A DNA stretch of 43,743 nt, from positions 9,931 to 53,673 of the forward strand of contig NW_014040543.1 in assembly GCF_001186125.1 (NCBI RefSeq), written 5' to 3'. The DNA comes from Sphaeroforma arctica JP610 (taxonomy: Eukaryota). Positions 12,601 to 34,479 of the stretch are shown piece after piece (position 1 is the stretch's first letter; every line of letters starts with the position of its first letter). The notes under the pieces are model-generated. The model searched no databases. It was not told the origin of the DNA and worked only from the letters and a program-made list of their open reading frames with translations. The translations under genes were made by a program, and so were the position numbers.

Positions 12601-14347
12601 TGTGCTCAGGTCGTGCGTATACGCCGGATTAGAGGCAAGTTCATTTTTGTAAAATCTGAGGGCCTCATGCGGGCGATCAGGCACCATTCCAGCTAACAGC
12701 GCGTTACCCATTGACGCGAATGTAACTTTGCCCTTACCCGTACTTTTACCTCCTGTGATCTTTGCACCGCGGATTTGAGTACTACATACGGCGCCACTCG
12801 AAACCACACTCTCCTTTACCTCTACCCCGCTCACGCTACCTGCGGCATGAACCATCACAAACACACGGGATCGAGCCGTGAGGTCTACTGCTGAGGCATT
12901 CCCACAGTATGCACTCCACACCTTCAGCGCGTCATCTACGCGACCACACCTACCTAGCACACAGATCATTTCATCTGGCTCCAAAGGGCTGTGCAGGACT
13001 TGTAATGGCCTTTTACGGTCATAAAGTGGATACCCAGACATTGCATGCACCACTTCCGCTATGCATTCGACTTGACTGGTGTATTTTAAGCTGTATTTAT
13101 ACAGCAGAAATAGACTTTTTAGTAAGAGGCGAAATACAGCAAAGCACGAGTCTATCGACAACATCGTCAACGCCACCTTGTAATAGTTGGTTTGCTGTCA
13201 ATTTTTACTGTTCCCTGAATGTACGAATGTAAGATGACTCGCAGACCCACTATAAGGGCTAACCGAAAAATGACGCATATTCACATACGTGTATAGATAT
13301 TTCTCACTACATAATGTCAGAATGCACTCCTACATGCAGTACAACCCTATTTCTTGACCAATAGTTGGATCGACTCGCGGCGACTATGCGTCACTATTTA
13401 TATTACATGCACAGAGTACTTAGCTACAAATAATTGACACATGCAGATGGAGTTTCAGCCATATTCAAGTGCAAGAAAAGCTGCTATGGTTCACGTACTC
13501 GATCACCAAAACAGCTCACTTCAACTTACCTTTTGGTTGCTAGTACACACATGCGTTCGTTCACAGGCAGTCGGTGTTGCATCGCCGCTTGAAATACCTC
13601 CCAACACTCCACAAAGCGCTTCTCCTTCTTGCAGAGATCCATCACAAAGGCACAATGAACATCTGTAACGGCACCATTGTTCTGTTTCAGCCCTCTCTTT
13701 ATCAAGTGGATCGCATTCTTCCACTGGTCTTTCTCGGGAGGCCTTTCGTTCCTGCGTACGACTTTACCACCCACAATCACCCAATTAGTACCCTGTGTGT
13801 TTACTTTGCGCTTCGATGTGTTTGTTTTGCGCTTAGTGGAGTGTGGAAAGTGGTTCGACAAGTCATCTCCCTGCACCCCTCCGGCCCCAGACGGCTCTTG
13901 AGATCTGATGTATTCCTTATCGCGGTCGTGCGCTCGTTTATAAGACACAGACTCTGATACCCCTTCCCAGGTGCGTAATTTATAGTCTATATCTCGGCGG
14001 GTAAGCAATTTCTCGGTTGTCAGGTCGGACTTGTGTGGTGATTGATGGTTACTAGCGCTACTATGGTCTAGTTTACTACTGTATAATCTTCTGCCTATCT
14101 CTGCAAACGGCAACCCTTGATCATGAATGCGCGAACATCTGTTGAACATATCTTGTGGAGAACCTCCAGTCAGCGTACTATCTGGTGTCCACAAGATAGA
14201 GCCAGCAGATTGAGTCTGAGTGGCTGTAACACACGCATTAAATGCACTATAACATGCTTCCGTTCGCCTTCGTGTGCGTGAGTATGTGTGACTGCATATG
14301 TGTATATATCTGTTGCACAGTAAGCGCCCGTATACTACTGTATTCAT
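6652..14347 (-). CDS. Large pentatricopeptide-repeat (PPR) protein, ~2,418 aa, two coding exons (14347-13530 and 13090-6652)
   Basis: Tandem 35-aa PPR motifs, e.g. TRSYNTLMHAYGSGG..., DVVTYNTAISAYARAGCFDEAVQMF, AISYTGVIDAANSSGRYTEALRWFDEMRGRKLKLNATAYTSALTAC. A second, more diverged cluster lies near the C-terminus (LFDTMINSCAAIGDYKLAESAF; PDRSTYDMYFRALEKGSKWQ). Phase-2 intron 13529-13091 (GTAAG...TACAG) joins ...VLATK-S-LKYTSQVECIAEVV in frame. First ATG at 14347; an upstream exon is not excluded. Confidence 0.88.
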
Positions 14348-15108
14348 CCTTGCATCAGAAGCTTTGCACGGCAAGCAAATACCCCTGTTAATAGTCTATC
14401 AGTCTAAATTGGTGCTGTGCTTGAGTATATGAAGTAGCATCAGCAGCTACCTTTGTAAAGTAGAGTAGATTCGACAAAATAAAGCATCGCAAAGTGATTA
14501 TGTTGAAGAAGGCAGCAATATTATAATGCTGTACCCCTGATACTCAAATTTCTCGGTAGTATGTTCAACCTCTACATATAGATGCGATAATGTGAAGTCA
14601 GTGATCTATTTGGACGTCACCTGGAGGTAATAATGTTCTAACGACTAGGTATAGGTGCGTGAGCTGCCATATCAATATATTAACAATACATCTATGTGCT
14701 ACTAATACATCTCTGGGTACTGTGACCGAACCCACTTGTCGGTGACTGGGTTTGGTCTCTGCGTTCGTGGAGAGATATTATAGTGATCACATACACATTG
14801 AAATCATATCTATATAAAACCAAATCTATATCCATTTTGTAAATATTTTTACCTATCCGTGTGCACGAACATATTTTGACATCATGACAAATATTTGTGT
14901 AAATGTACATCATGATATATAAAATATATATAACAACGTATGTATGAATATACGCCGGCAGAACCGATAGACAGCAAAGGCCCAATAGACCCCGAAAGTT
15001 ACCTAATTCTATGCCCCATATTACTTGTGTATAGACTGCAGAGTGTAGACCCTTCATACAATCGCTGGCTACAGCTTGAATACAATTTACTATTTCTTCT
15101 CGTTAAGT
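14348..15108. promoter_or_regulatory. Probable shared/bidirectional promoter region between the divergent PPR and thioredoxin-like genes
   Basis: Head-to-head start codons ~760 bp apart, with AT-rich TATA-like tracts (e.g. TATATAAAA near 14810 and 14916). Inferred from gene geometry only. Confidence 0.4.
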
Positions 15109-16918
15109 ATGAGTAGACGAATTGCTGCTTTTGCAGCCATCGGTGTAGTAGGAACATGCGTGGGGGCCTACGTCTTGCAATCAACCCAGCAATCATCACC
15201 TAGTGAGCCCAAGAAGAAGGGTTTGCCTGTATCTCAATTACCCAGTGATATGTCCAAGTACGATCCAGATGATCCCATGGTACAACTAGCACTCAAGCTA
15301 AGGGAAGAGGGTGCAGTATTATATACAACCGATTGGTGTGGCCCGTGTAAAAGACAAAAAGATGCGTTTGGCGATGCTCAGGACCTGCTGCCGCAGGTGG
15401 ACTGCTCGCGCATGGACGGTCGACGTGGCTTCAAACCTGAGTGTCTGAAGGTGTGTTCGCTCGTATATCGTATGAGTACCTTGTGGTGTGTGTTCGCTCT
15501 TATATCGTATGAGTACCTTGTGGTGTGTGTACACATTCTATCTGATATACAATGGCATGTGTATGCGTATTTACTTGGTGTACTGTTGCATACGACGCGA
15601 TCCCCGTAAGAGTTAGTAAGGTTTGTTTGGCTATACTCAGGATCTTCTCTTGGATTACTCACGCCTCGAAGTTTGGCGTGGTTTTAGCTCCGAGTGTCTG
15701 GGGGTGTGTATACATTCATATCGTATGTGCAATGTACGTGTGTATGCGTTTTTACCAATCGCAGTGTTGCCTCTGACTGATTGGTATGGCCGGTGCAAGA
15801 GACAGAAAGGTGCGCTGAATATGTGTGTGTTTCTATGTAAGATGTGCAGTTGTATGTGTACACTCGCGGAGATAACACTAGCAGGACCTGCGAGCAAACC
15901 ACATATTTTATACGATGCAGCGTTGTACACGAACCAATTGATGTAGTCCGTGCAAGTGACAAAAAGGCGCGCTGAATATGTGTGTTTTTCTATGTAAGAT
16001 GTGCAGTTTTTATTTTTACACTCGCGGAGATAAAACTAGCAAGACCTGCGGGCAAACCATCTATTTTATACGATGCAGCGTTGTACACGAACCAATTGAT
16101 ATGGTCCGTGCAAGTGACGAAAAGGTGCGCTGAACGTGTGTGTGCTTTCGTGTCGTACGTGTAGTTGTGTGCGTTTTTGTTTTGTGTCTGTAATTGTGTG
16201 TGTGTTATATTGTGTGCGTAAATGTGTTCGTTTTTGTATCGTGTGTGTAAATGTGTGCGTGTTATATCGTGTGTGTAATTGTGTACGTGTACACATGTAT
16301 TTACTAAGGTGGTATTGTTTATGACCGATTTTTGTGGTCTGTGTAATAGACGGAAAGATGTGTTGGGTGATACTCAGGACCCTTCGCCACATGTGGACTG
16401 CTCACACTTCGCTTGTGTAAGCAGCTTTTTGTGTGTGTGTGTACTTGCATGTGCGGCAGCGTCATGTGTATAGATATGTGAGTTCAGTGATGATATATTT
16501 GGGATGCGAGCGCAGCTATGGCCTTGAAGGCTTCATAGTCTGGTCTGTCAAAAATATGCGTTGGTGACCGCACCTGTACCATTTTCCTATCAATTGAAGG
16601 TCTGTTGGTTTTTGGCGTGTCAATAATCATGTCAATATTTATACTCACTGAGGAAACTGTGTTGTCAACTTATAAAGATTAGAGCCCGCTTGAAAATCAA
16701 TAGACACTGCACCTCGTACATGTATGTCTAACGTATCGAGATCACGACCGACCAAGCATCAGCAATCTAACCTGTAGACGTTTCTGATACTGCAGCTCGG
16801 TATTAGAACAGTACCCTCATGGAAACGATCAGACGGCTCCTTCATTCCCGGAGATCCGAATCTAAACAAACTGCAAAAGAATATGCTCAGCTCGTCTACC
16901 AATTTCCAATTACATTAA
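15109..16918 (+). CDS. Small thioredoxin/glutaredoxin-like protein (~154 aa) with N-terminal hydrophobic anchor; two exons (15109-15450, 16796-16918)
   Basis: Exon 1: MSRRIAAFAAIGVVGTCVGAYVL (hydrophobic segment), then GAVLYTTDWCGPCKRQKDAFG...VDCS...PECLK|GT. Exon 2 after CTGCAG: LGIRTVPSWKRSDGSFIPGDPNLNKL...TAA, which supplies the cis-Pro (TVP) motif. Both junctions are phase 0. Confidence 0.82.
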
Positions 16919-18434: not shown

Positions 18435-18506
18435 GGCGGCGTCCAGGAATCGAACCTGGGACCTCTACCACCCGAAGGTAGAATCGTACCACTAGACCAA
18501 CGCCGT
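18435..18506 (-). tRNA. trnP: tRNA-Pro (anticodon CGG), intronless, with an A1-C72 mismatch
   Basis: Reverse complement ACGGCGT TG GTCT AGTGGTA CGAT T CTACC TT CGG GT GGTAG AGGTC CCAGG TTCGATT CCTGG ACGCCGC C: 72 nt, perfect anticodon and T stems, intact A and B boxes, and a TTTT Pol III terminator a few bases downstream (plus-strand aaaa at 18424-18427). Confidence 0.93.
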
Positions 18507-19799: not shown

Positions 19800-19965
19800 C
19801 CGGGCAATACTGCCGAGAGTGAGCTCATTGTTACTTCCGCGACGATTTAAAGGCACACGCTGATGATTTGATCATTTCGAACTGAAAAAGACTAAGCAGC
19901 GCGTATAGCACCAGTATATGTCATGATATTAAGCTGCTCGTACTTGAGATGATTCAGAATGTAAC
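19800..19965 (+). repeat. Left arm of diverged inverted repeat (putative TIR)
   Basis: Colinear match, roughly 70% by eye, to the reverse complement of 34480-34645. A partial direct copy of its inner half is at ~20613-20700. Confidence 0.75.
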
Positions 19966-20009
19966 CAATCATACAACTACGACTCATGTGGTCCTCGAAG
20001 ATGGGCAAT

Positions 20010-21225
20010 GGTGATTGTACATATTTGTGTGCTGCCAAAAGATTGCTCATCATGTTTCCGATGCGAATATTTATTCTCTTAAAGATGGTTTGCGTGTGTC
20101 AATCGACATCTTTTTTTTCTCTCACAAAATATCAGTTGGGATTTACATGCATGTGAGTACTCGATCACTTTACGGGAGTCCCTCCACAAGTTACACGCAT
20201 CAAACTAAAACCAACTAAAGGGGTGAATACAAAATATCGAAGATTGGCAGTGGTGATTGTACATATTTGTGTACTGAACAAAAGATTGCTCATCATGTTT
20301 CCGATACGAATATTTAATCTCTTAAAGATGGTCATGTTTCCTATGCGAATATTTAATCTCTTCAAGATGGTTCGCGTCTGTCACTCGATATCTTATTTTC
20401 TCTCAAAAAATAACAGTTGGGATTTATATACATTTGAGTACCCTGTATCTTTACGAGAGTCCCTGTACAAGTTACACGTATCAAACTAAAACCAAATAGA
20501 GGGCTCAATACTAGATAGACGGGATACATAGAACATACCCCTACACTTCAGTCGCTATCAATATCATGGTAAGTTGAGGAATCACCTCTTAGAAAAGATA
20601 ATTTGATAATCATGAACTAAAGAGGACTAATCAGCCTGTATAGCACCAGTATATGCCATGATAATAAGTTGCTCGCACTTATTGAGATGATTCAGAATTG
20701 TATCTGCAGTATGTTTCACAAAGAGTGTGCCAATTAAAGGTTAAAAGTCGTCCCGGTTATATAATATTACATTTCGGTTTCGATTCAAACTTTGAATTTC
20801 TTAAAGATTGTTCGTGTGTCACGAGATAACTCTTTTTACTCCGGCAAAATATCAGTTAGGAATTATACATATTTGAGTACCTTTTATTTTTACGGGAGTC
20901 CTTCTTCAAGTTGCATGCACCAAATTACAATAAAATTACAGGTTGAACGATCAATAAACAAATACATGAAACAGAAACCTACACTTCAGTCGCAATTCAT
21001 ACAATAGCGAGTTGATAAATCACCTCAAAGGTACGACATTGGTTCTATAATTTGCATATACCGTTTGAAAGATTATAAATCTAGCAAATTTTAACTAAGA
21101 GGTTAACTAAGAGGTTGCCAAGTAAGTGTTAAAAGCCAGCTCAGCTGTAGAATATTTTGGTCGGTTTCTATTCACACTTCGAATCTTTTAAAGATTGTCC
21201 GTGTGCGCAAGTTACACGCATCAAT
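20010..21225 (+). repeat. Satellite array, block 1 (3-4 partial units)
   Basis: Recurrent modules CTTAAAGATTGTCCGTGTGTCACGAGATAAC, CAGTTGGG..CATTTGAGTAC, TTTACGGGAGTCC..CAAGTTACACGCATCAAA and CCTACACTTCAGTCGCTA, shared with blocks 2 and 3. Confidence 0.85.
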
Positions 21226-21234
21226 GTATAATCA

Positions 21235-21560
21235 TGTAGAGTATGAAGAGTAGCTGAAAGGTACGAGACAATAGGATGCAATAGACCTCTTCTCAAGTAC
21301 GGTTATCTCAGCTAGGAAAAGTCCTTAGTCTGAGAGAACCGAACTGAGTCTTTATTCGTGCTTTCATTAGACTCAGGATTTACTTGAGTGTTTCTCTCAC
21401 ACGCGGGAGTCCCGGTATATCTTACCGATTCTACCGCTGATATTTCTGATGACCCTAATACCAGAAATATTCCAATCCTAATTCCAAAACTCAGTATTTG
21501 ATTATTCTGGGTTTTGGGATTTAGATTGGCTTTTTGATAATCTGGTCCCTAGATGCTACA
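21235..21560 (-). repeat. 3' LTR (326 bp) of the Ty3/gypsy element
   Basis: Inverted termini TGTAG...CTACA; abuts the polypurine tract; minus-strand AATAAA at 21351-21356. No second LTR is present to confirm the outer boundary. Confidence 0.78.
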
Positions 21561-21572
21561 GCCCCCCAACTT
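21561..21572 (-). promoter_or_regulatory. Polypurine tract (plus-strand primer)
   Basis: Minus strand reads AAGTTGGGGGGC immediately before the LTR start TGTAGCA. Confidence 0.75.
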
Positions 21573-21932
21573 TATGCTTCTTAGCCTGCGTAGGAGTAGA
21601 AAGTGACATCTTACATTACTAGATTATCTAGAGGTTGGTGTTTGTATACAGGGAAAAACTTGTTCCTTAGTGGGCATAAGATGAAAAACCTGCCACCATT
21701 ATCTATTACATATTACCGATTAATTAAATTTATACTATAGCAGGAGTTCACTACCACGCTCATCGGAGTCAGTCTTGACCGGTGCTCTCGGTTGATCTCA
21801 ACTTGGCTTAGGAAAACGCATCTCAACGGTGGTTCTCAGCCGAGTCTCTGGTCCTTGTCCCTCTGGTGTGTGGGGGGAGCATGCTTCTAGGCGAGAAAAG
21901 TGGGAGTGTCTTGTGGTATCAGTGAGACTTGC

Positions 21933-24900
21933 TTAGGTTCCCCGACTCGTGCTCTGTCTGTGGCTCGCTGATCTTTCATCAGTACTCGTTGTCGTTGGCT
22001 TCTTTGGCCTTGACTGCCTTCGTTTACGTCTCCGGCGTTGACGGTATGTTTTAATGACATCAGCATCTGCAATGTCTGATTCATGCGTCCAGGTACGCTC
22101 ATCATCTGTCTATTGCAGTAGGTACTCCTGGGATCCATCACCTCGTATGGACGGCCTGTCATCGACTATCGATGAGAACTGTGTCTCTTCGTTTGGTTGT
22201 ACTTGATTGTTGGTGATAAATGCTTCCGGATCATTGGCCCTTTTTACGAGTCCAAGTAGCTCATCACTGATCGAGTCAGGATATTCGGGGGCTTTAGTCC
22301 CATCAAGGTTACAGACAAAATACCCGTTGCCCTCCCTGCATACTATTTTGTATGGTCCGCCATTTGGTGCTGTTAACTTGTTCATCTCACCTTGATAGCA
22401 GACCATGACAAGGTCCCCTTCTTAGAAGTTTACATGCTTCTGTTGGTATTTTCAATCGTATGCTGCTCGCATCTTCTCTTGATATTGTGCAACATTGCTC
22501 TCTAGTTGTAGCCTAATGGTTTCTTCTAGATATTGTAGTCGCTCCTTCCAAGATACTGTTGTACCGGGTGCGGTCACTAGCTCATTGTAGTCCGTGAGTT
22601 GATTTTGTCTGCGACCAAAGTACACATTAAAGCGCGGATACTTGTGTCTTCTGGATGTACGCAGATTATGGCCCATTTGTACGAATGGAAGTCGTGAACA
22701 CCAATTACCTGGGTTCTGTTCAACGAATTTCCGTAACAATGGCATGAGGTCTCTATGTGATCGTTCGTTCGCGCCTAAGACTTTAGGTTGATACGGCCGA
22801 GAGACTAGGTGTTGCATTGGCGCTTGTTCAACAACTTTTGAAAGTATGCTGTTAACATATTCAGTGCCTTGGTCCGTTTGTATGATTTGTGGGAATCCAT
22901 GTTCACACATGATTGGTACCAGAGTGCGTGCTATAGTAGCCGCGGATTTGTCCATCATTGGACGTAGAATGACGTATGACGAGTATACGTCAAGGTATAC
23001 TAACACATATGTGTGTCCTCTATTATCATCCAATAGTGGCCCTATGGTATCCACTTGGACTCTGTCGCTTGTGTATGCGGCTGTAATTGATTGTAAGGTA
23101 TAAAATCCTTTCTTGTGTATTTTATTTTTGAGACATGATATACATCCATCAATGAACTTGTGTACATGTTGTTGTATATCATCCCAATCATGTCCATCAG
23201 ATTGCAACTTGTGTACCGTTTCCTCAGGAGTGTAATGTCCCAAGTTGTGGTATTGCTCAATGATGTTGACATGTGTCTCATATTCTGTTGTATGTGGTGC
23301 GTCTCCAATGTGAACTGGTTCTGACGCTGCAACGTGTATAGCAGGTTGTTCCCGCGTTGAATCGAAGTATGGAGACCTAGCTCCTATCTTTGCGACTAAT
23401 ATGACACCCCATGAGGTCTTGCCGCAAGCCTTCTTGCCCTCTTTGAGGAACGTGTTGTGAGTGTTTTCCACTAGCAGCGGGCCTTCTTCTGATAAAGACA
23501 AGAACTTTGGAAATCACGAGGTATTGGTGTAATATGGTACACATATTGTGATACTGGTTGCCTCTTCAATGATTTTTTCGAGGACATCAGGTATGAGTTC
23601 CCATGGTGGATTCGCCCATGCTTTAACTTCTTGCGCCCATTTTTGGTTTAGCGCATTCTGCTCTTTGGTGTAGTATTTATCCGTGTGTGCATTGTGTGCT
23701 AATGCAAACAGATCCACTGTGAACTTCCCAAATCTTCGTTCCGCTTCTTGGTAGAATCTGGGATGTAACATCCAGTCTATAGCCGAGATGCTTACGGGCA
23801 TGTTCGTTTCCAAGGTGGTGTACTCTTGGCTATTATGTGTTGCCTCATTCGCCTGTTGTAATACTTTTGACTCTTTGGTACTAAAAGTATCTTCATGTAG
23901 ACGTGACAACATATCTGCCATCTGGTTGTCCTTGCCTGGGACATGTATGATGGAGAAGTGGTGGTGGAACGTTCTTGCTATCCACTTGGCTATCATTGGG
24001 TGTAACGTCTGTCGATTGTTCATTTGCGTGAGCGCTTTGTGATCTGTCCACAGTGTTATGTCCCCCCTTTTGATGTATTCCGAAAAATGTTCTAGGCTAT
24101 ATACAAGTGCTAGTAGCTCTTTGGTATTTGTGCCATATCGTTGTTGTACTGGATTCAATCCTTTTGAGAAGTAGAGAATGTCCCTTCTGACTCCATCGAT
24201 GACTTGAAATAAACACCCTCCTATGCCATAGTCACTAGCATCGTTCATAATTTGAAACGGTACCCCATCAACCGGGTATGCTAACGTCGCTGAACAGGCG
24301 ATGGCTTCTTTGAGTTCTTCCCACTTCTTGATTAGTTCCGGTGTCCATAACATGGATATGTTCTGGTTAATTTTTCCTTTCATTAGGTTCCGAAAGTGTT
24401 TCGTTGTGTGGGCAAAGTTGGGGACATTGTCTCGCATGTAATTTGCTAGTCCCACTGCTTTGTGCAGATCTCTTTTTGTTCTGGGTAGTGGCCAGTCCAT
24501 CATTCTTTTCTGTTTCTCAGGGTCTGCTTTGAGGCCCTGTGTGGTGACTTTCACCCCAAGAATGTTGTCCACTTTGACCGCAAAGGCACACTTGTTGTGG
24601 TCGAGTCGGAAGTTTGTGCTATTTAGTCGCCTGATTACTTCACGAACTGCCTTGCGATGTTCTTCTTCTGTAAGACTCGCAATGACTATGTCATATACAT
24701 ACACTTGCACTCCTGTGATATTTATGAGCAGATTTGCCATGACTCTCTGGAATTGTGCTGTGGGTGAGTGTAGTCCAAATGGCACAGTCTTGAATCGAGT
24801 ATTGCGCTCCTCTCCACGAGAATGTGAAGAAGTGTTGGCTTGCTTCGTCTACTAGGAAGTGGTGAAATCCACCTGTGAGATCGATATTTGAAAAGAATTG

Positions 24901-25803
24901 CGCTCCTTGTAGGTTGTGTAATACTTCCTTTATTTTTGGTAACACAAACTTGTCTTGTTCGTATTGGTAGTTGATCTCACGTAAGTCTAGACAGGTCCTG
25001 ACTTTTTTGAGTAGACCTGTTTGGTCATGTTCACCTGTTGACAACAACGGTAGATTCACCGTTGTTGGTTTGTCTCGTTTGTATATATGGCCATCGTGGA
25101 GCCATCGTTGCACATTCTCATCCGTTTGCGAAATGTATTTGTGTGGAACAAAGTTGACTTTAGCATGCCTCATTTGTCTGACGTTGATTTCATTTGCAGG
25201 TACCGTGACTGTGGAGCCTGGTAGGTTGCAATGAACGTCAGGAGGTATATTTGTGTTGGTGTCCAGGAAGTCTGTCAGTGACTCTCTGAAACCTTCTTGT
25301 TCATGCTCTGAGTCCTCTTCATGTGGTGTGAGGAGTGATTCACACGTTGCATCTGTTGGTATAAGTGGGTTGATTAATACCGCTATATATATACTTATGT
25401 ATGGTAGAATGTCCATACCTAGAAGTATTGGTGTTTTCTTTTTAGGCAAGTCCAATACTTCAAAGCATTGAAAGGTTTTTCTGCCTCCGTAGTCAATGTC
25501 ACAAACTTCTGTTGCTCCAATGCGTTGTATTCTTGCATCTGTTTGTGCTAGTTGTATGTAACCCGGTTGCGTTCTAACAGAAAGATATAATTCTGATACT
25601 ACACTTGTGTCCATGCATGAGCGTTGTGCGCCCGAGTCTACTAGTGCATTGTATGTATTGCCATTGATTTGTATGTCAATGTGTAAACGTTGGTCTCGTG
25701 GTGCGGGAAGTAAAGATAAAGGCTGATAATATATATCATATGCATTTATTAACAGCGTTTCTTCGTCTGTGAATACATTGAGTATGTCAGCCAGGTCAAT
25801 CAT
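21933..25803 (-). pseudogene. pol: pol pseudogene: aspartic protease-RT-RNase H-DNA adenine MTase-integrase-chromodomain
   Basis: PR ALVDSGAQRS; RT RTCLDLREIN, IDLTGGFHH, PFGL, YVYD (a decayed YxDD); RH NDASDYGIGGCL, ELLALV, TDHKAL, ADMLSR; IN HHCC (YHNLGH...CISC) and DDE (VDTIGP, TDQGTEY, NERSH); GGPYKIV; chromodomain EYLLQ*...TW. One frameshift near 24790 and in-frame stops at 23514, 22452, 22422 and 22110; terminal TAA at 21933-35. Confidence 0.92.
23382..23777 (-). other. Dam-like (phage/DIRS-type) DNA N6-adenine methyltransferase domain within pol
   Basis: DWMLHPRFYQEAERRFGKFTVDLFALAHNAHTDKYYTKEQNALNQKWAQEVKAWANPPWELIPDVLEKIIEEATSITICVPYYTNTS*FPKFLSLSEEGPLLV...KTSWGVILVAKIG. SAM-binding DLFA at 23714-23703 and catalytic NPPW at 23612-23601. 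Confidence 0.85.
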
Positions 25804-26183
25804 GTTTGCTTCCGCCCACCAGTGTTTTCAGTGTGCATCACCTTCAATGATGTCCTCCACCTTGCCAGATGTAATGGATAGTCTTGCTATCTGCACCTCC
25901 TTCTTGGCTTGTTGTGCAGCCTTCTCAGCTTGATCACCTTCTTCTCGGGACATTCACTGTACCGATGTGGGGCTGGCGATTCATGACAGTAAGGACATGC
26001 ACGTTCTTCACGTACTCCCTTCTTTTTCTGTGTCTACCCTCCTTGATTGTGCTGGTTGTGCGTACCATTGTCTATCTTGTGACGTTTGTTGGCGTTCGTA
26101 GAGTTATCCTCCACCTGCGCGTTCGCCTGCGTATTGTTGCGTTTATTTGCATTGTTTGCAGCTCGCGCCTGATACCTCAATTA

Positions 26184-26667
26184 TTCAGTGGAGCCAGTGG
26201 CTGTGAATGTGATGAGGCGCTTCATGGCATTCCAAAATCGACAGTGGCTACCGGTTATTTGTCTGGAATATACTCGCCGACATCTAGGAGACTTTGACGT
26301 AGTTCCTTTAGTTGCTGTATACTTTGTTCAGTGGAGCCAGTGGCTGTGAATGTGATGAGGCGCTTCATGGCATTCCATAATCGACAGTGGCTACCGGTTA
26401 GTTGTCTGGAATATACTCGCCGACATCTAGGAGACCTTGACGTAGTTCCTTTAGTTGCTGTATACTTTGTTCAGTGGAGCCAGTGGCTGTGAATGTGAAG
26501 AGGCGCTTCATGGCATTACAAAATCGACAGTGGCTACCGGTTATTTGTCTGGAATATATTCGCCGACATCTAGGAGACCTTGACGTAGTTCCTCTAGTTG
26601 CTGTATACTTTGCTCAGTGGAGCCAGTGGCTGTGAATGTGACGAGGCGCTTCATGGCATTCCAAAAT
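26184..26667. repeat. 143-bp tandem repeat, ~3.4 copies, inside gag
   Basis: CAGTGGAGCCAGTGGCTGTGAATGTG starts at 26186, 26329, 26472 and 26615 (exact 143-bp period); the copies differ by only a few substitutions. Confidence 0.95.
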
Positions 26668-26753
26668 TGGCCGTGGCCACCTGTATTGTTGGTAACACAA
26701 ATGTAATTAAATAATTCAGACGATGTTTTAGAGTAATTATTTTGGTAAACACT

Positions 26754-27488
26754 GGTGACGATTTCCTCTTTGATGGAATCCATCATTGTACGTCTGCACC
26801 GGGCATTAGCGAGTGTATCAACAATACAGAGCTGCTCACAATATGGATGTAGTCTATGGAGTACGCCGAAGTGCACAAGTTCTATTTTGAGGCCCCATGA
26901 TTCATTTGCTGAAAGTTTCCCAACTCTCAAGTTTAGTGCGGTTGTATATGTCCTTATACTTGGGGAACACCTTGGTCGGTGGCGGTAATACCATATTTTT
27001 CGGCTAGCATGATGAATTTACCTCGATTTCATTGATTTTGGTAACAGTGGTGACCAGTTCCTCTTTGATGGAATCTATCATTATACGTCTGCACCAGGCA
27101 TTAGCGAGTGTCTCAACAATACAGAGCTGCTCACAACCTGGATGTAGTCTATGAAGTACGCCGAAATGCGCAAGTTCTGTTTTGAGACCCATGATCCAGT
27201 GACCAGTTCCTCTTTGATGGAATCTATCATTATACGTCTGCACCAGGCATTAGCGAGTGTCTCAACAATACAGAGCTGCTCACAATCTGGATGTAGTCTA
27301 TGAAGTACGCCGAAGTGCGCAAGTTCTATTTTGAGACCCATGATCCATTTACTGAAGTTTTCCCAATTCTCAAGTTTAGCGCGGTTGTATATGTCCTTAT
27401 ACTAGGGGCACTCAGAGAGGGGAACACCTGGGTCGGTGGCGGTAATACCATTTTTTTTTGTTGGCATAGCATGATGAATTTACCTCGA
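26754..27488. repeat. Compound duplication inside gag (two ~275-290-bp copies flanking a 149-bp partial copy)
   Basis: GTGAC...TTCCTCTTTGATGGAATC recurs near 26755, 27050 and 27199; the three ORFs here share LKxELxHFGVLHRLHPxCEQLCIV. Confidence 0.9.
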
Positions 27489-27947
27489 TAACACCGGAGT
27501 CTTTGAGTTAGTGATCTTGTCCAATGCCTCTTGCAGTTCAATACGGGTAGTATCGAGCTTAAGTTGAAGAACAGAGAAGTTGTCGGTAGATTTCTCGGAC
27601 TGCCCGTAGAGACGCAATTCAGTTTTTTAGGCGATCTGTTAGTTTTTTGGGATCGATTTGTAGTGTTTCGTGTTTAGCTAGAAGCACTTTATGTTCATCG
27701 CCTAACTGCACATTATAACGTTTGTAGTTATCGAGATCGGCTTGAACATATTTGCGTTGTTTGTTTGCGTGATATAGATCACTACGTGTCATTGTAAGTT
27801 GTGCTATTGCTTTCGCAGTAGAGCCGAACATTTCATCGTAGGAGATGCGGATATCCTTGATAACGTTGTTGATGGCATCCATGTGACCGTTGGCAGATTC
27901 GAGAGTGGTATATACGGGTAGTTCCGGCCAGAATTCTCATGTCCAAC

Positions 27948-30900
27948 AGGTCCTAGTAATTTGTATATATCGTTAAATTTCACTAAGAGTTTGTCAGGTT
28001 AATTGTAAAGGCCCTATCGACTCTACCACAATACTTTTGGTCGCGATTTAAACTTGTGAATCGATTAGAATGTCCGTGTGCTTCACGAGATACATTTTCT
28101 GTGAAAGAATCAAATAAACAGATGCATAAAACAGGAGCCTACACTCCAGTCGCTATTCGTAACATAGTTAGTTGATGGATCATCTTATATGTACAAAGGC
28201 GTGGGTCATATATTTCGCATAAATCGTTTGAAATATATACAGCACATATTCAATTCACTAAGAGTTTCTCAAGTTAATGTTGAAAGCCGTCTCGACTCTA
28301 GAATATTAGGGTTAGATTGTGTGTATAATGAGATAACTCTAATTACTTTGATAAAATATCCGCTGATATCTATATGCAGTTGAGAATCGGTTTTCTTTAC
28401 GGAAGTCCCACTTCAAGTTGCACGCATCTATCAACCTACTGATGGATTCTACACTAAATAATTAGATATATAAAATACCCATACTGCGGTCGTTATCCGA
28501 GCATAGCAAGTTGATGGATCACCTCATAGATACAACGACACGGGTCCTATACTTTGCATAAAATATTGTAAACATAGCAGGTATTCACTTGAGAGTTTGC
28601 CAAGTTAATGTTGAAAGCGCCCTCGGCTAAAAAATAAAACGTTTGGTTTTGATTCCAACCTATAATTTCTTATATATTGTCCGTGTGTATCACGTGACAA
28701 CTTTTCTCAGATAAAATCAAATAGACAAATGCAAAATGATAGCCTTCCACTTTAGTCGCCATTCATAAAATAATAAGTTGATGAAATATACCTCATGAAT
28801 TCAAAGACACGGGTCCTATACTATGCATCAATTGTTTGTAAGATTGTAGATAAATCCAGTAAATTTTTACTAAGAGTTTGCCAATTCAATGTTGTAAGCC
28901 CTCTCGGCACAGAATAATACGATTGGTTTTTATTCAAAGTATATAATTTCTTGAAGCTCGTCCGTGTGTGTCACGAGATAAGCTCTTGTTATTCTGACAA
29001 ATATCAGTTGGGAATTGTACATTTGAGTATCGCTTTTCTTCACGGAAATCCTGATTCAAGTTACACGCATCAAATGACAACCAACTAATGGGTCGGACAC
29101 TGAATAAACGGATACTTAAGAAACCTACGCTTCAGTTGCTATCCATCACATAATATGTTGATGATTTGATTCATAGATACAAAGACGCTGTTTCAATACT
29201 TTCACATAAACCGCTTAAAATATCGTAAAATTAGTAAATATTTCAATAAACATGATACGTTTGGTTTTGATTGAAATTTTTAACCTCTCAAAGATTGTCC
29301 TGTGTGTCACGACATACCTCTTGTTATCTCTGACAACGTATCAGTTGCTATCCATAAAGTAGTAAGTTGATAGGATACTTCATAGGTACAGAGAAACATA
29401 GGTCCTATAGTTATTTGAAATTCTAGAAATCCAGGAAATATTGACTAAGAGTTTGTCAAGTTAATGATGAATGACTTATCAGCTACAGAATAATACGGTT
29501 GGTTTCGATTCAATATATTTTCTTTTTAAAGATTGTCTGTGTGTGTCACGAGAAATTTTTTGATATTCTGACGAATATAATTCGGGATATATATGCATTT
29601 GAGTACCTTATCTCTTTACTGGAGTCCATCTACAAGTTACACGAACCAAATGACAACCAACTGATGTGTTGAATACATCATTTCAGCCGCTATTCACATC
29701 ATAGTAAGTTGATGGATCACCTCAATGATATAAAAACATGGGTCCTATATTTTGCATAAATCGCTTAAAATATTGTATACCCAGCAAATTCTAACTAGAT
29801 TGGCGATAGAATAGTACGGTTTTGATTCAAACTTTCAAATATCGTAAAGATTGTCCATTGTGTCACGACATAACTCTATATTTTTCTGACAAAATATAAG
29901 TTGCGGAATAAATGCATTTGAGTACGCTTTCCCTTTACGAGAGTTCCTCTAGAAATGAGACGGAGCAAATTACAACCAACTGATGGTTTGAACACCAAAT
30001 AAACAGATACGTAAAACAGACTCATCCACTTCAGTTGCTATCCATAACGTAATAAATTGATGGATCACATCATAGATGCAACGGCATGGGTCCTGCATGG
30101 ACAAATCTGTTGGAATATCGTCAATTCAACAATACTTCACTGAGAGTTTGCCAAGTTAATGATGAAATATTTCTCGATTTTGATATCATGTTTTGGTTCG
30201 ATCCAAACTTTAAATATCTTAAAGATTGTTCGTTTATGGAGAAATCGGTTGGAATATTCTAAATCCAGCAAATCTTCACTAAATTTGCCAAGTTAATGAT
30301 GAAATATCTCTCGACTCTAAACCGATACGTTTGGGTTCGGTCCAAACTTCAAGGATCTTAAGGATTGTCCATGTGTTTCACGAGATATGTTTTCTGCGAT
30401 AAAATCAAATAAACAAATGCATAGCAGAATCCTACACTTCATTTGCTGTTCATAGTATAGTAAGTTGATGGTCACCTCATAAATACAAAGACGCAGTACC
30501 TATAATTCGCATAATTCATTTGAAATCCAGGTAACTTTCAGTAAGAATTTGTTAAGTCAATGTTGGAAGTCCTTTCGGCTATATAGTAATAAGTTTGGTT
30601 TCGATTCAACCTTTTAATACCTTTTCAACTCTGTCTGTTGTGATACAACGTAACTCTTAATTTCTCTGACAAAATGTCAGTTGTTATATGCATCTGAGTA
30701 CTCTTTCTGCTTACGAGAGTCCCTCTATAAGTTAGACACAGCAAGTTACGACCAAATGATGGGTTCGAACTCTAAATAACTAGATACACATAACATACCT
30801 CTGTACCCCAGTCGCTATATAACATAATAGGGTGATTTATCACCTCATAGATACAAAACATGGGTCCTATGTGCATAAATTGTTTGAAACATTGTATATC

Positions 30901-31140
30901 CAGCAAAGCCCTCTCCGCTATAGAATAATAGATACGGTTGTTTTTGCTTTAAACTTAGAATAACTTGAACAGTGTTCGTGTGTGTCACGAGATAGGTCTT
31001 CTGATAAACAAACTAAATAAACACATCGATACTACAGAAACCTACACTTCAATCGCTATTCATAACAAAGTAAGTTGACAGATCACTTTATAGATACAAA
31101 GACATGGGTTCTATACTTTGAACTAATCGGTTGAAATAAG
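27948..31140 (+). repeat. Satellite array, block 2 (~10 units of ~250-370 bp)
   Basis: Anchor GAGTTTGCCAAGTTAATG(T/A)TGAAA, with variants, at 27987, 28262, 28593, 28874, 29449, 30144, ~30283 and ~30545. The other modules recur in a fixed order. Confidence 0.92.
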
Positions 31141-31148
31141 GAAAATAA

Positions 31149-33212
31149 TTTTTTTTTCAATTTGGTTAGAGATTTATATGTATACTTGTACATCAGGCTT
31201 CATAGTCGTTGGAGAGGTTCTGGGAAATTGAAGGGAAGTTGAGATTGTCGAACTGTCGCGAGAAGCTCGGGGCGAGTGATGCAACGATGGAAGACATACG
31301 GTGCGTTAGTTCACGGCGATGGATACAGCATACATCTACCACCGGGTGAGAACTAAAACCTGTGTGCCATTGCGTGAAATAAAGCTGGCCCACACTTGTA
31401 GTGATAATATGGGCTGAGTCGGTCTGAGATATTTTGAACGTGATACCAAGGAGGGTGAGTTTGTCAATCGCAATTCTGTTTCGGAGCGAAGTTGGGGGCT
31501 ATCCGACACTACACCACACAACTGATGTAATTGTAATATCCTGGCTAACTATAGCGGGAAGTATCATAGGTGGTACCAGAAGTCTCGAAGATTTGGTCTG
31601 TACCGAAATATGAAAATAGTGCTTCAGTAAAGTGATGAGACGGGGTATGGGGAACATCAATCTATCGACCAGTACTGGATGGGGATAAATTGGTGCCTAT
31701 TGTTCATGGAGGAAGAAAGCTTCCGAGATGTTCGTGGAGAGTCCATATGCCGTGGTAATCATGCCGATCCTGTAGTTGTTGTAGTAAGTTCGGTCCAATT
31801 GAATTAGGGCCACCAGAATACGCCTTATTAGAGAACTGATACAAGCAAAGTGGATGGACGTAAAGGTTTTATCTCCGGGGCATATAGGACAGAGGCACCC
31901 ACCGGTACGATAGTCAAGCAATTGGAACAGTAATGTGTTGGTTGCTATCATGGCACAAATGGGTATTGGAATTTGGTTAGAGATTTATATGTCTACATGT
32001 ACATCAGGCTTCATAGTCGTTGGAGAGGTTCTGGGAAATTGAAGGGAAGTTGAGATTGTCGAACTGTCGCGAGAAGCTCGGGGCGAGTGATGCAACGATG
32101 GAAGACATACGGTGCGTTAGTTCACGGCGATGGATACGGCATACATCTACCACCGGGTGAGAACTAAAACCTGTGTGCCATTGCGTGAAATAAAGCTGGC
32201 CCACACTTGTAGTGATAATATGGGCTGAGTCGGTCTGAGATATTTTGAACGTGATACCAAGAAGGGTGAGGTTGTCAATCGCAATTCTGTTTCGGAGCGA
32301 AGTTGGGGGCTATCCGACACTACACCACACAACTGATGTAATTGTAATATCCTGGCTAGCTATAGCGGGAAGTATCATAGGTGGTACCAGAAGTCTCGAA
32401 GATTTGGTCTGTACCGAAATATGAAAATAGTGCTTCAGTAAAGTGATGAGACGGGGTATGGGGAGCATCAATCTATCGACCAGTACTGGATGGGGATAAA
32501 TTGGTGCCTATTGTTCATGGAGGAAGAAAGCTTCCGAGACGTTCGTGGAGAGTCCATATGCCGTGGTAATCATGCCGATCCTGTAGTTGTTGTAGTAAGT
32601 TCGGTCCAATTGAATTAGGGCCACCAGAATACGCCTTATCAGAGAACTGATACAAGCAAAGTGGATGGACGTAGAGGTCTTATCTCCGGGGCATATAGGA
32701 CAGAGGCACCCACCGGTACGATAGTCAAGCAATTGGAACAGTAATGTGTTGGTTGCTATCATGGCACAAATGGGGATTAGAGTGTGTTCGCGGCAGTGGG
32801 TAAAGCTACTATGGGATGGCTTGTCCTGGTCCGTGATGGGAGGTTCTCCCTTTATAAGTCGGTAGTAGTATTGACGGGCGAGCCTTGCCTGCTATCTCCT
32901 TGGTTGTGAGACGTTGTAGGGTATTATGTCGGATCTGCTCGCGAAGCTTACGGAGTTCCTTGTGTTAAGGTGTACACCCGCCCTTTGATTCTAGAAAAGC
33001 GTAAATACTGAACGGAAATTTGTCCGGAGGTCTGTTACGTGTCCAAGCGGGTCTTGTAAGTGGGGCGAGTGGGTTTGTACTGTTGATTGAGTCAAGATGT
33101 AGTCCCAGGCAGTCACCAAGGTACTCCGCAAATTGACGTGCTGGAAGTAAACAGCAAAAGCGAAGAACTGTATGCGCTGGTATGGAAGTTTTGGGAATAT
33201 AGTGCCTGATAT
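31149..33212 (-). mobile_element. 5'-truncated LINE-like (non-LTR) retroelement 3' end with its terminal 811 bp tandemly duplicated
   Basis: Decayed minus-strand coding frame with a CPICPGDKTSTSIHFAC (CCHC-type) motif typical of LINE ORF2 C-termini. A9 tail at 31157-31149. Near-identical direct repeat 31159-31969 / 31970-32779. No RT motif lies in the retained part, so the class is inferred. Confidence 0.62.
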
Positions 33213-34445
33213 AATCCTATACTTTGCGTAAATCGGTTGATATGTTGTAAAACCAGTAAATTTTTACTTGGAGTTTACCAAGTTGATGTTAAAAGCAGTT
33301 TTGGCTATAGAAGTATACGGATGGTGTCGATTCATACTTCTTATCTCAAATATTTTCTTTGTGTGTCTCGAGTCAAATAAACAGATACGTAAAACTTAAA
33401 CCTACACTTTAGTCACTATCCATAACATAGTCATTTGATGGATCATCTCATAAATACAAAGGTATCGGTCCTATAGTTGCATAAATTGGTTAAAATTGTA
33501 AATCGAGCAAACTGTCACTAAGAGTTTGCCAAGTTAATGTTAAATACATTTCGGATTCAGAATAATACGTTTTGTTTCGATTCAAACTTGTAATTTCTTA
33601 AAGATAAAAAAAGGAGATAACTCTTGTTATTCTGACAAAATAGCAGTTGGGGTATATGTGCGTTTGATTACCTTTTTATTATTACGGAAGTCCCTCTCAA
33701 TATACAAGCACACAATTACAACCAACTGATGATTTGGTCATTAAATAAGCATATACAAAAAAATGTATCACCTCAAAGATATAAAGATATGGATCCAGTA
33801 CTTTGCATAAATCGTGTCAAAGACTGTAAATCCAGCAAATTTAACTAGGAGTTTGCCTAGTTGCTGTTGAAAGTCCTATCAGCTCTAGAATAATACGTTT
33901 GGTTTCGTTTCAAACTTTTATTCTTTTAAAAATGGTTCGTTGAGTCACGACATAACTTGTTTTCTCTGACATTTTTCTCTCTCCGGCAGTTCGACGACAA
34001 TCTTAACTTCCCTCAAATCTTCACAGAATTCTCTAACGAATATGGAGTCTGATGTGCATATAGACATATAATAATTTACCCAAATTGAAATAAATAATAT
34101 TACCCCTAGTTGCGAAACAAATGCATTTGAGTACGCTTTCTCTTTACTGGAGTCCCTATATAAGGTAGACACAGCAAACTACAATCAACTGATGGTTTGA
34201 ACACAAAAAAATACAGATACATAACATAGTAAGCTGATGGATCAACTCATAGATACAAAGGTACGGGCCCTATACTTCGCATAGATCGGTTGAAACATTG
34301 TAGATCCAGCAAATTCTCACTAAGAGGTTGCCAAGTTAATGTTAAAAACCCTATCGGGTATAGAATGACACGTTCGGTTTCGATTCAAACTTTAACCTCC
34401 TATAGACTGTCCGTGTAATCACAAGATAACTCTTGGTTTCTGACT
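33213..34445 (+). repeat. Satellite array, block 3 (~4 units)
   Basis: Same anchor at 33271, 33522, 33849 and 34324, in the same orientation as blocks 1 and 2. Confidence 0.9.
33975..34100 (+). mobile_element. Short 3'-terminal fragment of the same LINE-like family, in the opposite orientation
   Basis: CAGTTCGACGACAATCTTAACTTCCCT...TGATGTGCATATAGACAT...CCAAATTGAAATAAATAA matches the reverse complement of 31158-31262 and interrupts a satellite unit just after TCTCTGACA. Confidence 0.75.
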
Positions 34446-34479
34446 AATTTCCGGTGTGGTCAGCGGGATATGTAATGCA

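What the first reader, a model, noticed from the sequence alone, without database searches (positions are those of the whole stretch)
21933..25803. Ty3/gypsy chromovirus with a DNA adenine methyltransferase built into pol between RNase H and integrase
Seen: after the RNase H end (ADMLSRL) and a ~35-aa linker, pol continues in the same frame into DW...VDLFA...NAL...W...WANPPW.LI..VL.KI...ICVP...*FP.F...W (23777-23382). It then continues, still in frame, into HHCC/DDE integrase, a GPY motif and a chromodomain. The ORF track splits this only because of one TGA at 23514 where Trp is expected. Established: DLFA plus NPP(W/F/Y) is the signature of phage-Dam-like amino-methyltransferases; in retroelements this domain is characteristic of DIRS (tyrosine recombinase, no protease, no DDE integrase), and canonical Ty3/gypsy pol is PR-RT-RH-IN(-chromo). 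Inference: this is an LTR lineage that captured an N6mA (or N4mC) writer, perhaps from a DIRS where MT also follows RH. It could methylate its own cDNA or integration site to mark it as active chromatin or shield it from host surveillance, while the chromodomain reads histone marks. I cannot confirm that the architecture is undescribed.
Basis: partly seen in the sequence, partly recalled or inferred. Interest (0 to 1): 0.9.

Follow-up and report, generated by a model that had tools for sequence, protein, structure and literature searches.

The report
Methylase-carrying retrotransposon with an overlooked chromodomain
This is a broken copy of a many-copy gypsy-type jumping gene, likely from the animal-related protist Sphaeroforma, whose main protein carries a phage-type domain predicted to methylate adenine in DNA and a divergent chromodomain; such elements were described in a 2026 preprint, which reported this lineage as lacking the chromodomain.

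Summary
On the minus strand, pol runs protease, RT, RNase H, Dam-like methyltransferase (Pfam PF05869, E 2e-16), HHCC/DDE integrase, GPY, chromodomain-like domain, then a purine-rich tract and a 326-bp TG..CA LTR. This copy is dead: a frameshift, an altered RT motif, four internal stops, no 5' LTR. Three stop-free relatives (two 1288 aa, one 995 aa lacking the N-terminus) keep the order and all catalytic motifs, so it is a family trait. The only named close relatives are Sphaeroforma arctica proteins. The architecture is not new: a May 2026 preprint describes DAM-LTRs, including an ichthyosporean lineage with S. arctica, and this scan met such elements before in other genomes. One point departs from that text, which says the ichthyosporean lineage lacks chromodomains: here one is present below Pfam's cut-off, supported by HP1-family sequence hits and a predicted chromo fold. 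It keeps one of three aromatic-cage residues, so canonical methyl-lysine reading is unlikely. Methylase activity is unproven (the preprint's E. coli test was negative). Chromovirus-clade membership stayed inconclusive, and DIRS origin of the methylase was not tested here.

The parts
21235..21560 (-). 3' LTR, 326 bp, starts TGTAG and ends CTACA on the minus strand; the only LTR in the window
   Evidence: Terminal letters; contigs of four runs leave the sequence at 21234-21235 and 21560 with mixed flanks (table 7); no second copy
21561..21582 (-). Purine-rich tract directly before the LTR (polypurine-tract-like)
   Evidence: Sequence
21933..22037 (-). Basic tail of pol (RRRRKRR at 22037-22017, possible nuclear localisation signal) and terminal stop
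   Evidence: basic run also in P0002, P0003, P0011
22026..22187 (-). Divergent chromodomain; a stop at 22112-22110 interrupts it in this copy
   Evidence: Pfam Chromo E 0.011; family profile hits PDB HP1-beta chromodomain E 4.8e-4; fold of intact relative
22347..22358 (-). GPY motif of the integrase C-terminal region; stops nearby at 22454-22452 and 22424-22422
22755..23063 (-). Integrase catalytic core, D-D-E intact
   Evidence: Pfam rve E 5e-13
23118..23267 (-). Integrase HHCC zinc finger
   Evidence: Pfam Integrase_H2C2 E 2e-6
23382..23777 (-). Dam-like amino-methyltransferase domain (DLFA and NPPW motifs); one stop at 23516-23514 in this copy
   Evidence: Pfam Dam E 2.4e-16; PHROG 111; TIGR01712
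23898..24260 (-). RNase H, four acidic residues intact
   Evidence: Pfam RT_RNaseH E 1e-23
24549..25008 (-). Reverse transcriptase (Pfam-matched part), split by a frameshift near 24795; active-site motif altered
25405..25680 (-). Aspartic protease (LVDSGA)
   Evidence: Pfam gag-asp_proteas E 2e-11
25830..27936 (-). Decayed gag-like region with internal tandem duplications (143 bp x 3.5; 149 bp x 2) and a C-x2-C-x6-H-x4-C knuckle-like motif at 25997-25950; 5' LTR missing
   Evidence: Translation; repeats; diverged contigs match out to 27936 (records 7 and 14). No Pfam gag hit in the pieces scanned, so 'gag' rests on position and the knuckle motif

Best explanation
This is a dead, 5'-truncated copy of a multi-copy Ty3/gypsy LTR retrotransposon family, likely of Sphaeroforma, whose pol carries a Dam-like domain that is predicted to put N6-methyladenine on the element's own newly made DNA, and a divergent chromodomain that likely helps integrase bind chromatin without a methyl-lysine cage. 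Shown: domain order, conservation in intact relatives, LTR, many insertion flanks, decay of this copy. Inferred: because the methylase is part of pol it would be packaged with RT and integrase and would act in cis on the RNA:DNA intermediate or cDNA; after integration the host's AMT1 would maintain the ApT mark and keep the new copy in transcription-permissive chromatin (the preprint's model, not tested here). Odds: membership among DAM-LTRs about 0.95; same lineage as the preprint's ichthyosporean DAM-LTRs about 0.8; chromodomain fold about 0.9; active adenine methylase acting in cis about 0.55.
For: Three stop-free relatives share the order RT-RH-Dam-IN-chromo-like: P0002 and P0003 (1288 aa, 72-75% identical to the window's pol) and P0011 (995 aa, starts inside RT, 57-60%). 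All three keep DLFA, NPPW, RT, RNase H and integrase catalytic residues. Methylase identity is 79% between P0002 and P0003 and 59% between P0002 and P0011, against 44% and 19% for the linker after it. Of the 40 best-supported differences between this copy and other copies' contigs over 23330-23830 (64 more not shown), the 21 in the motif-bearing half of the domain fall 16 at third codon positions (p 7e-5). Four of five shorter hits are named S. arctica JP610 proteins, 54-69% identical to the window; three of them run from the methylase into the integrase N-terminus. Best solved-structure sequence hit is Ty3 Gag-Pol, E 1.8e-65. Chromodomain: 45 of 49 residues identical between P0002 and P0003; profile hit to HP1-beta chromodomain E 4.8e-4; model pLDDT 75 with three strands and a helix; all 36 Foldseek rows shown are chromodomain-bearing proteins; best VIA Z 7.2, rmsd 3.4 over 57 residues. 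The preprint reports more 6mA and more expression on DAM-LTRs than on other LTRs in S. arctica.
Against: No activity has been shown: the preprint's DAM domains gave no 6mA gain in dam-minus E. coli, and it states that eukaryotic DAMs lack part of the prokaryotic catalytic region. The methylase diverges faster than RT, RNase H and integrase core (79% against 89-95% for P0002/P0003). In the C-terminal half of the domain only 5 of 15 differences fall at third positions. My model of the domain was poor (pLDDT 55) and did not confirm a Rossmann fold. The preprint's text says the ichthyosporean lineage lacks chromodomains, so this could be another family. Chromo scores stay under Pfam's cut-off in the three sequences that hit (E 0.004-0.015) and P0003 gave no Chromo row; no Foldseek row reaches E 0.001 and no VIA row reaches Z 8. 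The 6mA enrichment in the preprint could be laid down by the host alone.
Confidence: 0.6

Rival explanations
1. The Dam-like domain is kept as a non-catalytic or weakly catalytic module: it binds nucleic acid or SAM, or spaces RNase H from integrase, and any 6mA on the copies comes from host AMT1.
For: Negative E. coli assay in the preprint; faster divergence than the other enzymatic domains; unchecked earlier notes of this scan describe DAM-LTRs that lost the catalytic motif yet keep the domain.
Against: NPPW is intact in the window copy, all three intact relatives and three of the four S. arctica fragments, the fourth starting at PW; DLFA is intact in five of the six rows that cover it.
Confidence: 0.22
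2. The domain is active but on another target: the element's genomic RNA, the RNA strand of the hybrid, or cytosine N4. It would shield the intermediate from host surveillance rather than seed a chromatin mark.
For: NPP(W/F/Y) enzymes include N4-cytosine and RNA methylases (established knowledge, recalled); failure on E. coli double-stranded DNA fits another substrate, as the preprint notes for hybrids.
Against: All family-level hits name DNA N6-adenine methyltransferases or DNA methyltransferases, and DAM-LTRs are reported to co-occur with AMT1 (9 of 13 species).
Confidence: 0.13
3. The domain is a passenger: a DIRS fragment that landed in frame once and is carried along without selection.
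For: The nearest relative in the RT tree, P0012, has a low-complexity stretch and no Dam match at this place, so this position tolerates inserts.
Against: Kept in frame with intact motifs across relatives that differ at about 40% of residues; third-position bias in the motif half.
Confidence: 0.04
4. The element is a DIRS-type element or an assembly chimera, not a gypsy element.
For: RT-RH-MT order is the DIRS pol order (PMC3783388).
Against: Protease and DDE integrase are present, both absent from DIRS; TG..CA LTR with purine tract; the same order in three independent proteins from three sources.
Confidence: 0.01

Closest known systems
Ichthyosporean DAM-LTR lineage (Pirum gemmata, Abeoforma whisleri, Sphaeroforma arctica; Fernandez-Moreno et al., bioRxiv 10.64898/2026.05.21.726589)
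   Same: Ty3/gypsy pol with a Dam (PF05869) domain and conserved Asn-Pro-Pro triplet; the only named close relatives found are S. arctica proteins.
   Different: The preprint's text says this lineage lacks chromodomains; the family here has a divergent one, scoring below the preprint's E 1e-5 domain threshold. The text does not give the Dam position for this lineage; figures and supplements were not seen.
Chlorophyta DAM-chromovirus-like and Chloro-Ochrophyta DAM-LTR clades (same preprint)
   Same: Dam plus chromodomain in the first; Dam between RT and integrase in the second.
   Different: Algal hosts; described as separate captures. Relationship to this family was not tested, as their sequences were not at hand.
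DIRS retrotransposons (RT-RH-MT pol, tyrosine recombinase, inverted repeats; PMC3783388)
   Same: The same Pfam Dam family placed directly after RNase H.
   Different: Here protease, DDE integrase and a direct-type TG..CA LTR are present; no tyrosine recombinase was seen in the ORFs scanned.
Chromoviruses with group II chromodomains (plants; PMC3350952)
   Same: Integrase C-terminal chromodomain lacking the first and third cage aromatics.
   Different: That 2012 paper says group II was identified only in plant gypsy elements; the family profile here does not hit the four Pfam-chromo elements in my set, so the likeness may be convergent.

Membership tests
Ty3/gypsy LTR retrotransposon | pol order PR-RT-RH-IN with HHCC and DDE integrase | tested here: met
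Ty3/gypsy LTR retrotransposon | TG..CA LTR with polypurine tract | tested here: met
   One LTR at 21235-21560
Ty3/gypsy LTR retrotransposon | Two direct LTRs, primer binding site and target-site duplication | tested here: inconclusive
   This copy has lost its 5' end; no genome or relative's DNA was available
Ty3/gypsy LTR retrotransposon | RT of the Ty3/gypsy type | tested here: met
   Best PDB hit Ty3 Gag-Pol E 1.8e-65; the 52 more distant hits are RT/RNase H/integrase-type proteins. No DIRS RT was in the tree
DAM-LTR (preprint 2026) | Dam PF05869 domain at E under 1e-5 in a non-DIRS LTR element | tested here: met
   E 2e-12 to 2e-16 in the window copy and three relatives
DAM-LTR (preprint 2026) | Conserved Asn-Pro-Pro catalytic triplet | tested here: met
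Ichthyosporean DAM-LTR lineage | Ichthyosporean host | tested here: inconclusive
   Named relatives are S. arctica JP610, 54-69% identical; the window's host was not shown directly
Ichthyosporean DAM-LTR lineage | No chromodomain (as described in the text) | tested here: not met
   A divergent chromodomain is present; it would be missed at E 1e-5
Ichthyosporean DAM-LTR lineage | Placement in that clade of the Dam tree | not testable with these tools
Chromovirus | Chromodomain at the integrase C-terminus | tested here: met
Chromovirus | RT groups with the chromovirus clade | tested here: inconclusive
   The free tree places the family apart from five plant-type or Pfam-chromo elements, but the AU test does not reject grouping them, p 0.33 and 0.42; no curated references
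Group I (HP1-like) retrotransposon chromodomain | Three aromatic cage residues (Y24, W45, Y48) | tested here: not met
   Only the Trp aligns; Ser stands at the first position and a three-residue deletion covers the third (definition)
DIRS | Tyrosine recombinase; no protease, no DDE integrase | tested here: not met
   Protease and DDE integrase present (definition)
Active DNA N6-adenine methyltransferase | Rossmann-type SAM-binding fold | tested here: inconclusive
   Model pLDDT 55; structure searches uninformative
Active DNA N6-adenine methyltransferase | Methyl transfer to adenine in DNA | not testable with these tools
   Needs an assay; the preprint's E. coli test of related domains was negative

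The most novel reading that the evidence does not exclude
The Sphaeroforma DAM-LTR is a writer-plus-targeter element that the first description missed: a cage-less, group-II-like chromodomain, arisen outside plants, steers integration into repeat-rich silent chromatin (this copy sits inside a degenerate repeat array), while the packaged Dam domain pre-marks the cDNA with 6mA so that host AMT1 turns each insertion into an active island. The element would hide where it does little harm and still switch itself on.
Probability: 0.2. Interest if true: 0.7.

Novelty: new variant of a known kind. Interest (0 to 1): 0.33.

Why it matters
The class is published, so the headline claim is not new. What remains is a likely correction: the ichthyosporean DAM-LTR family seems to carry a chromodomain that fixed-threshold scans miss, so 'chromodomain-less' DAM-LTR counts may be too high and the Dam-plus-chromo pairing more general. 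S. arctica can be cultured and has a 6mA methylome, and stop-free natural pol proteins exist, so the open question (does a retrotransposon methylate its own cDNA to win active chromatin?) can be tested there.

Tried and rejected
No whole genome is held, so intact two-LTR copies, insertion-site bias and true dN/dS could not be measured. The deep profile search for methylase relatives never ran, so there is no Dam tree and the DIRS origin rests on the preprint; an Atlas feature search gave only unnamed eukaryotic clusters and one with 14% Dam at score 0.93, a lead only. Metagenome scans: 0 of 68 and 0 of 589 candidate stretches confirmed. Viral contigs: 6 of 75 stretches, distant RT-IN elements at 24-29% identity, not analysed further. 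Methylase fold: low confidence; Foldseek gave nothing at E 0.001; VIA gave 25 rows at Z 2.0-2.7, about 16 titled as methyltransferases including T4 Dam, too weak to count. No RNA holder listed, which says nothing on expression. Search for a 5' LTR remnant: best local score 25, within shuffled range. ApT, CpG and GATC content showed no clear element-specific signal beyond mild CpG depletion. AU test of the family with P0048 did not finish. Exact look-up of two versions of the host PPR protein found neither. Two translations were in the wrong frame and were discarded (eighth protein). No earlier notes exist on this genome or on look-alike sequence. Contig depth was not used as copy number. Repbase and GyDB could not be checked.
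Full report
Observation. The minus strand from 25806 to 21933 encodes a Ty3/gypsy-type pol. Pfam finds protease, RT, RNase H, Dam (PF05869, E 2.4e-16, 60 bits against a cut-off of 28), integrase zinc finger and integrase core in that order. PHROG 111 'DNA methyltransferase' (E 3.7e-18) and TIGR01712 phage N-6-adenine-methyltransferase (E 4.8e-13, under its whole-protein cut-off) agree. A related S. arctica fragment matches 243 of 50,697 phage records weakly; the 12 rows shown are 23-40% identical and 3 are annotated as adenine methyltransferases.

State of this copy. It is dead. It has a frameshift near 24795, an RT motif reading YVYD, and stops at 23516-23514, 22454-22452, 22424-22422 and 22112-22110; the last one interrupts the chromodomain. 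The gag-like region carries tandem duplications. A 326-bp LTR at 21235-21560 begins TGTAG, ends CTACA and follows a purine-rich tract. Contigs of four public runs leave the sequence at exactly these two ends with mixed flanking letters (for example 33 and 42 contigs at 21560, agreement 0.36-0.37), as expected for many insertion sites. No 5' LTR remains; contigs in two runs cross the truncated 5' end without a difference (records 6 and 13), although these runs may be the assembly's own source. Most other copies' contigs in three of four runs do not share the stop inside the methylase.

A family trait. Searches returned three stop-free relatives: P0002 and P0003 (1288 aa; 2 hits among 669 candidates; 72-75% identical to the window) and P0011 (995 aa). 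All have RT-RH-Dam-IN order and intact catalytic residues, DLFA and NPPW included. Among the 55 hits, 4 carry a precomputed Dam domain: these three and P0048, where it lies before the protease. Of 5 shorter hits among 70 candidates, 4 are named Sphaeroforma arctica JP610 proteins, 54-69% identical to the window; S. arctica is an ichthyosporean. The host is therefore likely Sphaeroforma, but this is inferred. The methylase is more conserved than the linker after it (79% against 44%; 59% against 19%) but less than RT, RNase H and integrase core. Of the 40 best-supported differences between this copy and other copies (64 more not shown), 21 of the 36 inside the domain fall at third codon positions: 16 of 21 in the motif half, only 5 of 15 in the C-terminal half. 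This is a rough sign of purifying selection, not a dN/dS. My fold of the domain was too poor to confirm a Rossmann fold.

The chromodomain. Pfam Chromo hits the window piece, P0002 and P0011 at E 0.011, 0.015 and 0.004, all below the cut-off; P0003 gave no row. Other tests agree that the fold is real. A three-sequence profile hits the HP1-beta chromodomain at E 4.8e-4. The isolated stretch of P0002 gives 18 PDB hits at E up to 10, the best at E 0.004, and 17 of them are chromodomain-bearing proteins by name. The Atlas gives Chromo clusters at 0.91-0.92. AlphaFold2 gives three strands and a helix at pLDDT 75; all 36 Foldseek rows shown are chromodomain-bearing proteins, though none reaches E 0.001; VIA's best is the Oxpecker chromodomain, Z 7.2, rmsd 3.4 over 57 residues, with none at Z 8. 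The domain is 92% identical between P0002 and P0003 and 49% to P0011. Against HP1 it keeps the cage Trp, has Ser at the first aromatic position and a three-residue deletion over the third. That is the pattern described for group II retrotransposon chromodomains, said in 2012 to be known only from plants (PMC3350952). HP1-type reading of H3K9me is therefore unlikely.

Phylogeny. An RT-RNase H tree used 50 of the 55 proteins; P0057, P0058, P0060, P0062 and P0063 were dropped as partial or unmatched, and the window copy was left out for its frameshift. The three relatives form one clade (SH-aLRT 100), sister to P0012 (98), away from P0048 and from the plant-type chromo elements (quick search, LG+G4, no outgroup). 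P0012 has no Dam match. The AU test does not reject joining the family with five plant-type or Pfam-chromo elements (p 0.33; 0.42 with P0012), so 'chromovirus' as a clade is unsettled. No DIRS sequences were at hand, so the donor was not tested.

How it likely works. Shown: the architecture, its conservation and the family's spread. Inferred: as part of pol the methylase would be packaged with RT and integrase and would methylate adenine on the element's own cDNA or RNA:DNA intermediate; host AMT1 would then maintain the mark and favour transcription of the new copy; the chromodomain and basic tail would help integrase reach and bind chromatin. I put active cis methylation at about 0.55. The main rivals are a non-catalytic role (0.22) and another substrate (0.13). 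This copy lies between two blocks of one degenerate repeat family of about 250-300 bp, which fits targeting to repeat-rich chromatin, but it is one insertion.

What is known. bioRxiv 10.64898/2026.05.21.726589 (whole main text read; figures and supplements not seen, and its Fig. 2b shows architectures that bear on the chromodomain claim) describes five DAM-LTR lineages. It reports chromodomain-bearing LTRs as 30.9% of DAM-TEs, an algal clade with Dam between RT and integrase, an ichthyosporean lineage including S. arctica that 'lacks chromodomains', a domain threshold of E 1e-5, raised 6mA and expression on DAM-LTRs in S. arctica, and a negative E. coli assay. From PMC5890265, PMC3783388, PMC3350952, PMC11673190, PMC4007536 and PMC6875170 I saw passages only; PMC11244446 only as a listing. 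Seven searches found no other report of a chromodomain in an ichthyosporean DAM-LTR; the library lacks most subscription papers, and Repbase and GyDB were not checked. This scan has noted DAM-LTRs in other genomes (unchecked notes).

Verdict. A real feature, a known class, and a probable small correction to its first description. Novelty: new variant of a known kind. Interest 0.33.

Noticed in passing
window 19800-21230 and 27975-34450: A degenerate repeat family of about 250-300 bp (65-80% identity, 18 further blastn matches to one unit) surrounds the element on both sides; no Rfam match. Satellite-like or a decayed non-autonomous element.
   Followed up: partly
window 6652-13197 (-): A 2181-codon stop-free frame with pentatricopeptide repeats (PPR_2 E 2e-34), unusually long and apparently intron-free.
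   Followed up: partly
window 18435-18506 (-): tRNA-Pro(CGG) gene.
   Followed up: no
window 15049-15609 (+): Exon of a small thioredoxin/glutaredoxin-like protein with a WCGPC motif (Pfam Thioredoxin E 0.044).
   Followed up: no
window about 36900-41700 (-): Exon pieces with FG-rich and coiled-coil sequence that look like a nucleoporin of the Nup62/Nsp1 type (name recalled; Pfam did not confirm it on the one piece scanned).
   Followed up: no
window 26181-26684 and 26755-27489: Fresh tandem duplications (94-98% identity) of 143-bp and 149-bp pieces inside the gag-like region.
   Followed up: no
protein P0048: An unnamed gypsy pol with a Dam-like domain at the N-terminus, before the protease, reading HPPY at the catalytic motif; its RT lies apart from this family, which fits a separate capture.
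   Followed up: partly
protein P0032: An unnamed gypsy pol with a C5 cytosine methylase match (E 8e-6) between RNase H and integrase and a C-terminal PHD finger (E 2e-11): another writer-plus-reader layout at the same insertion point.
   Followed up: no
window 31129-31428 and 31940-32239: A 300-bp direct repeat pair, 94% identical, 811 bp apart; a possible small LTR-like element.
   Followed up: no
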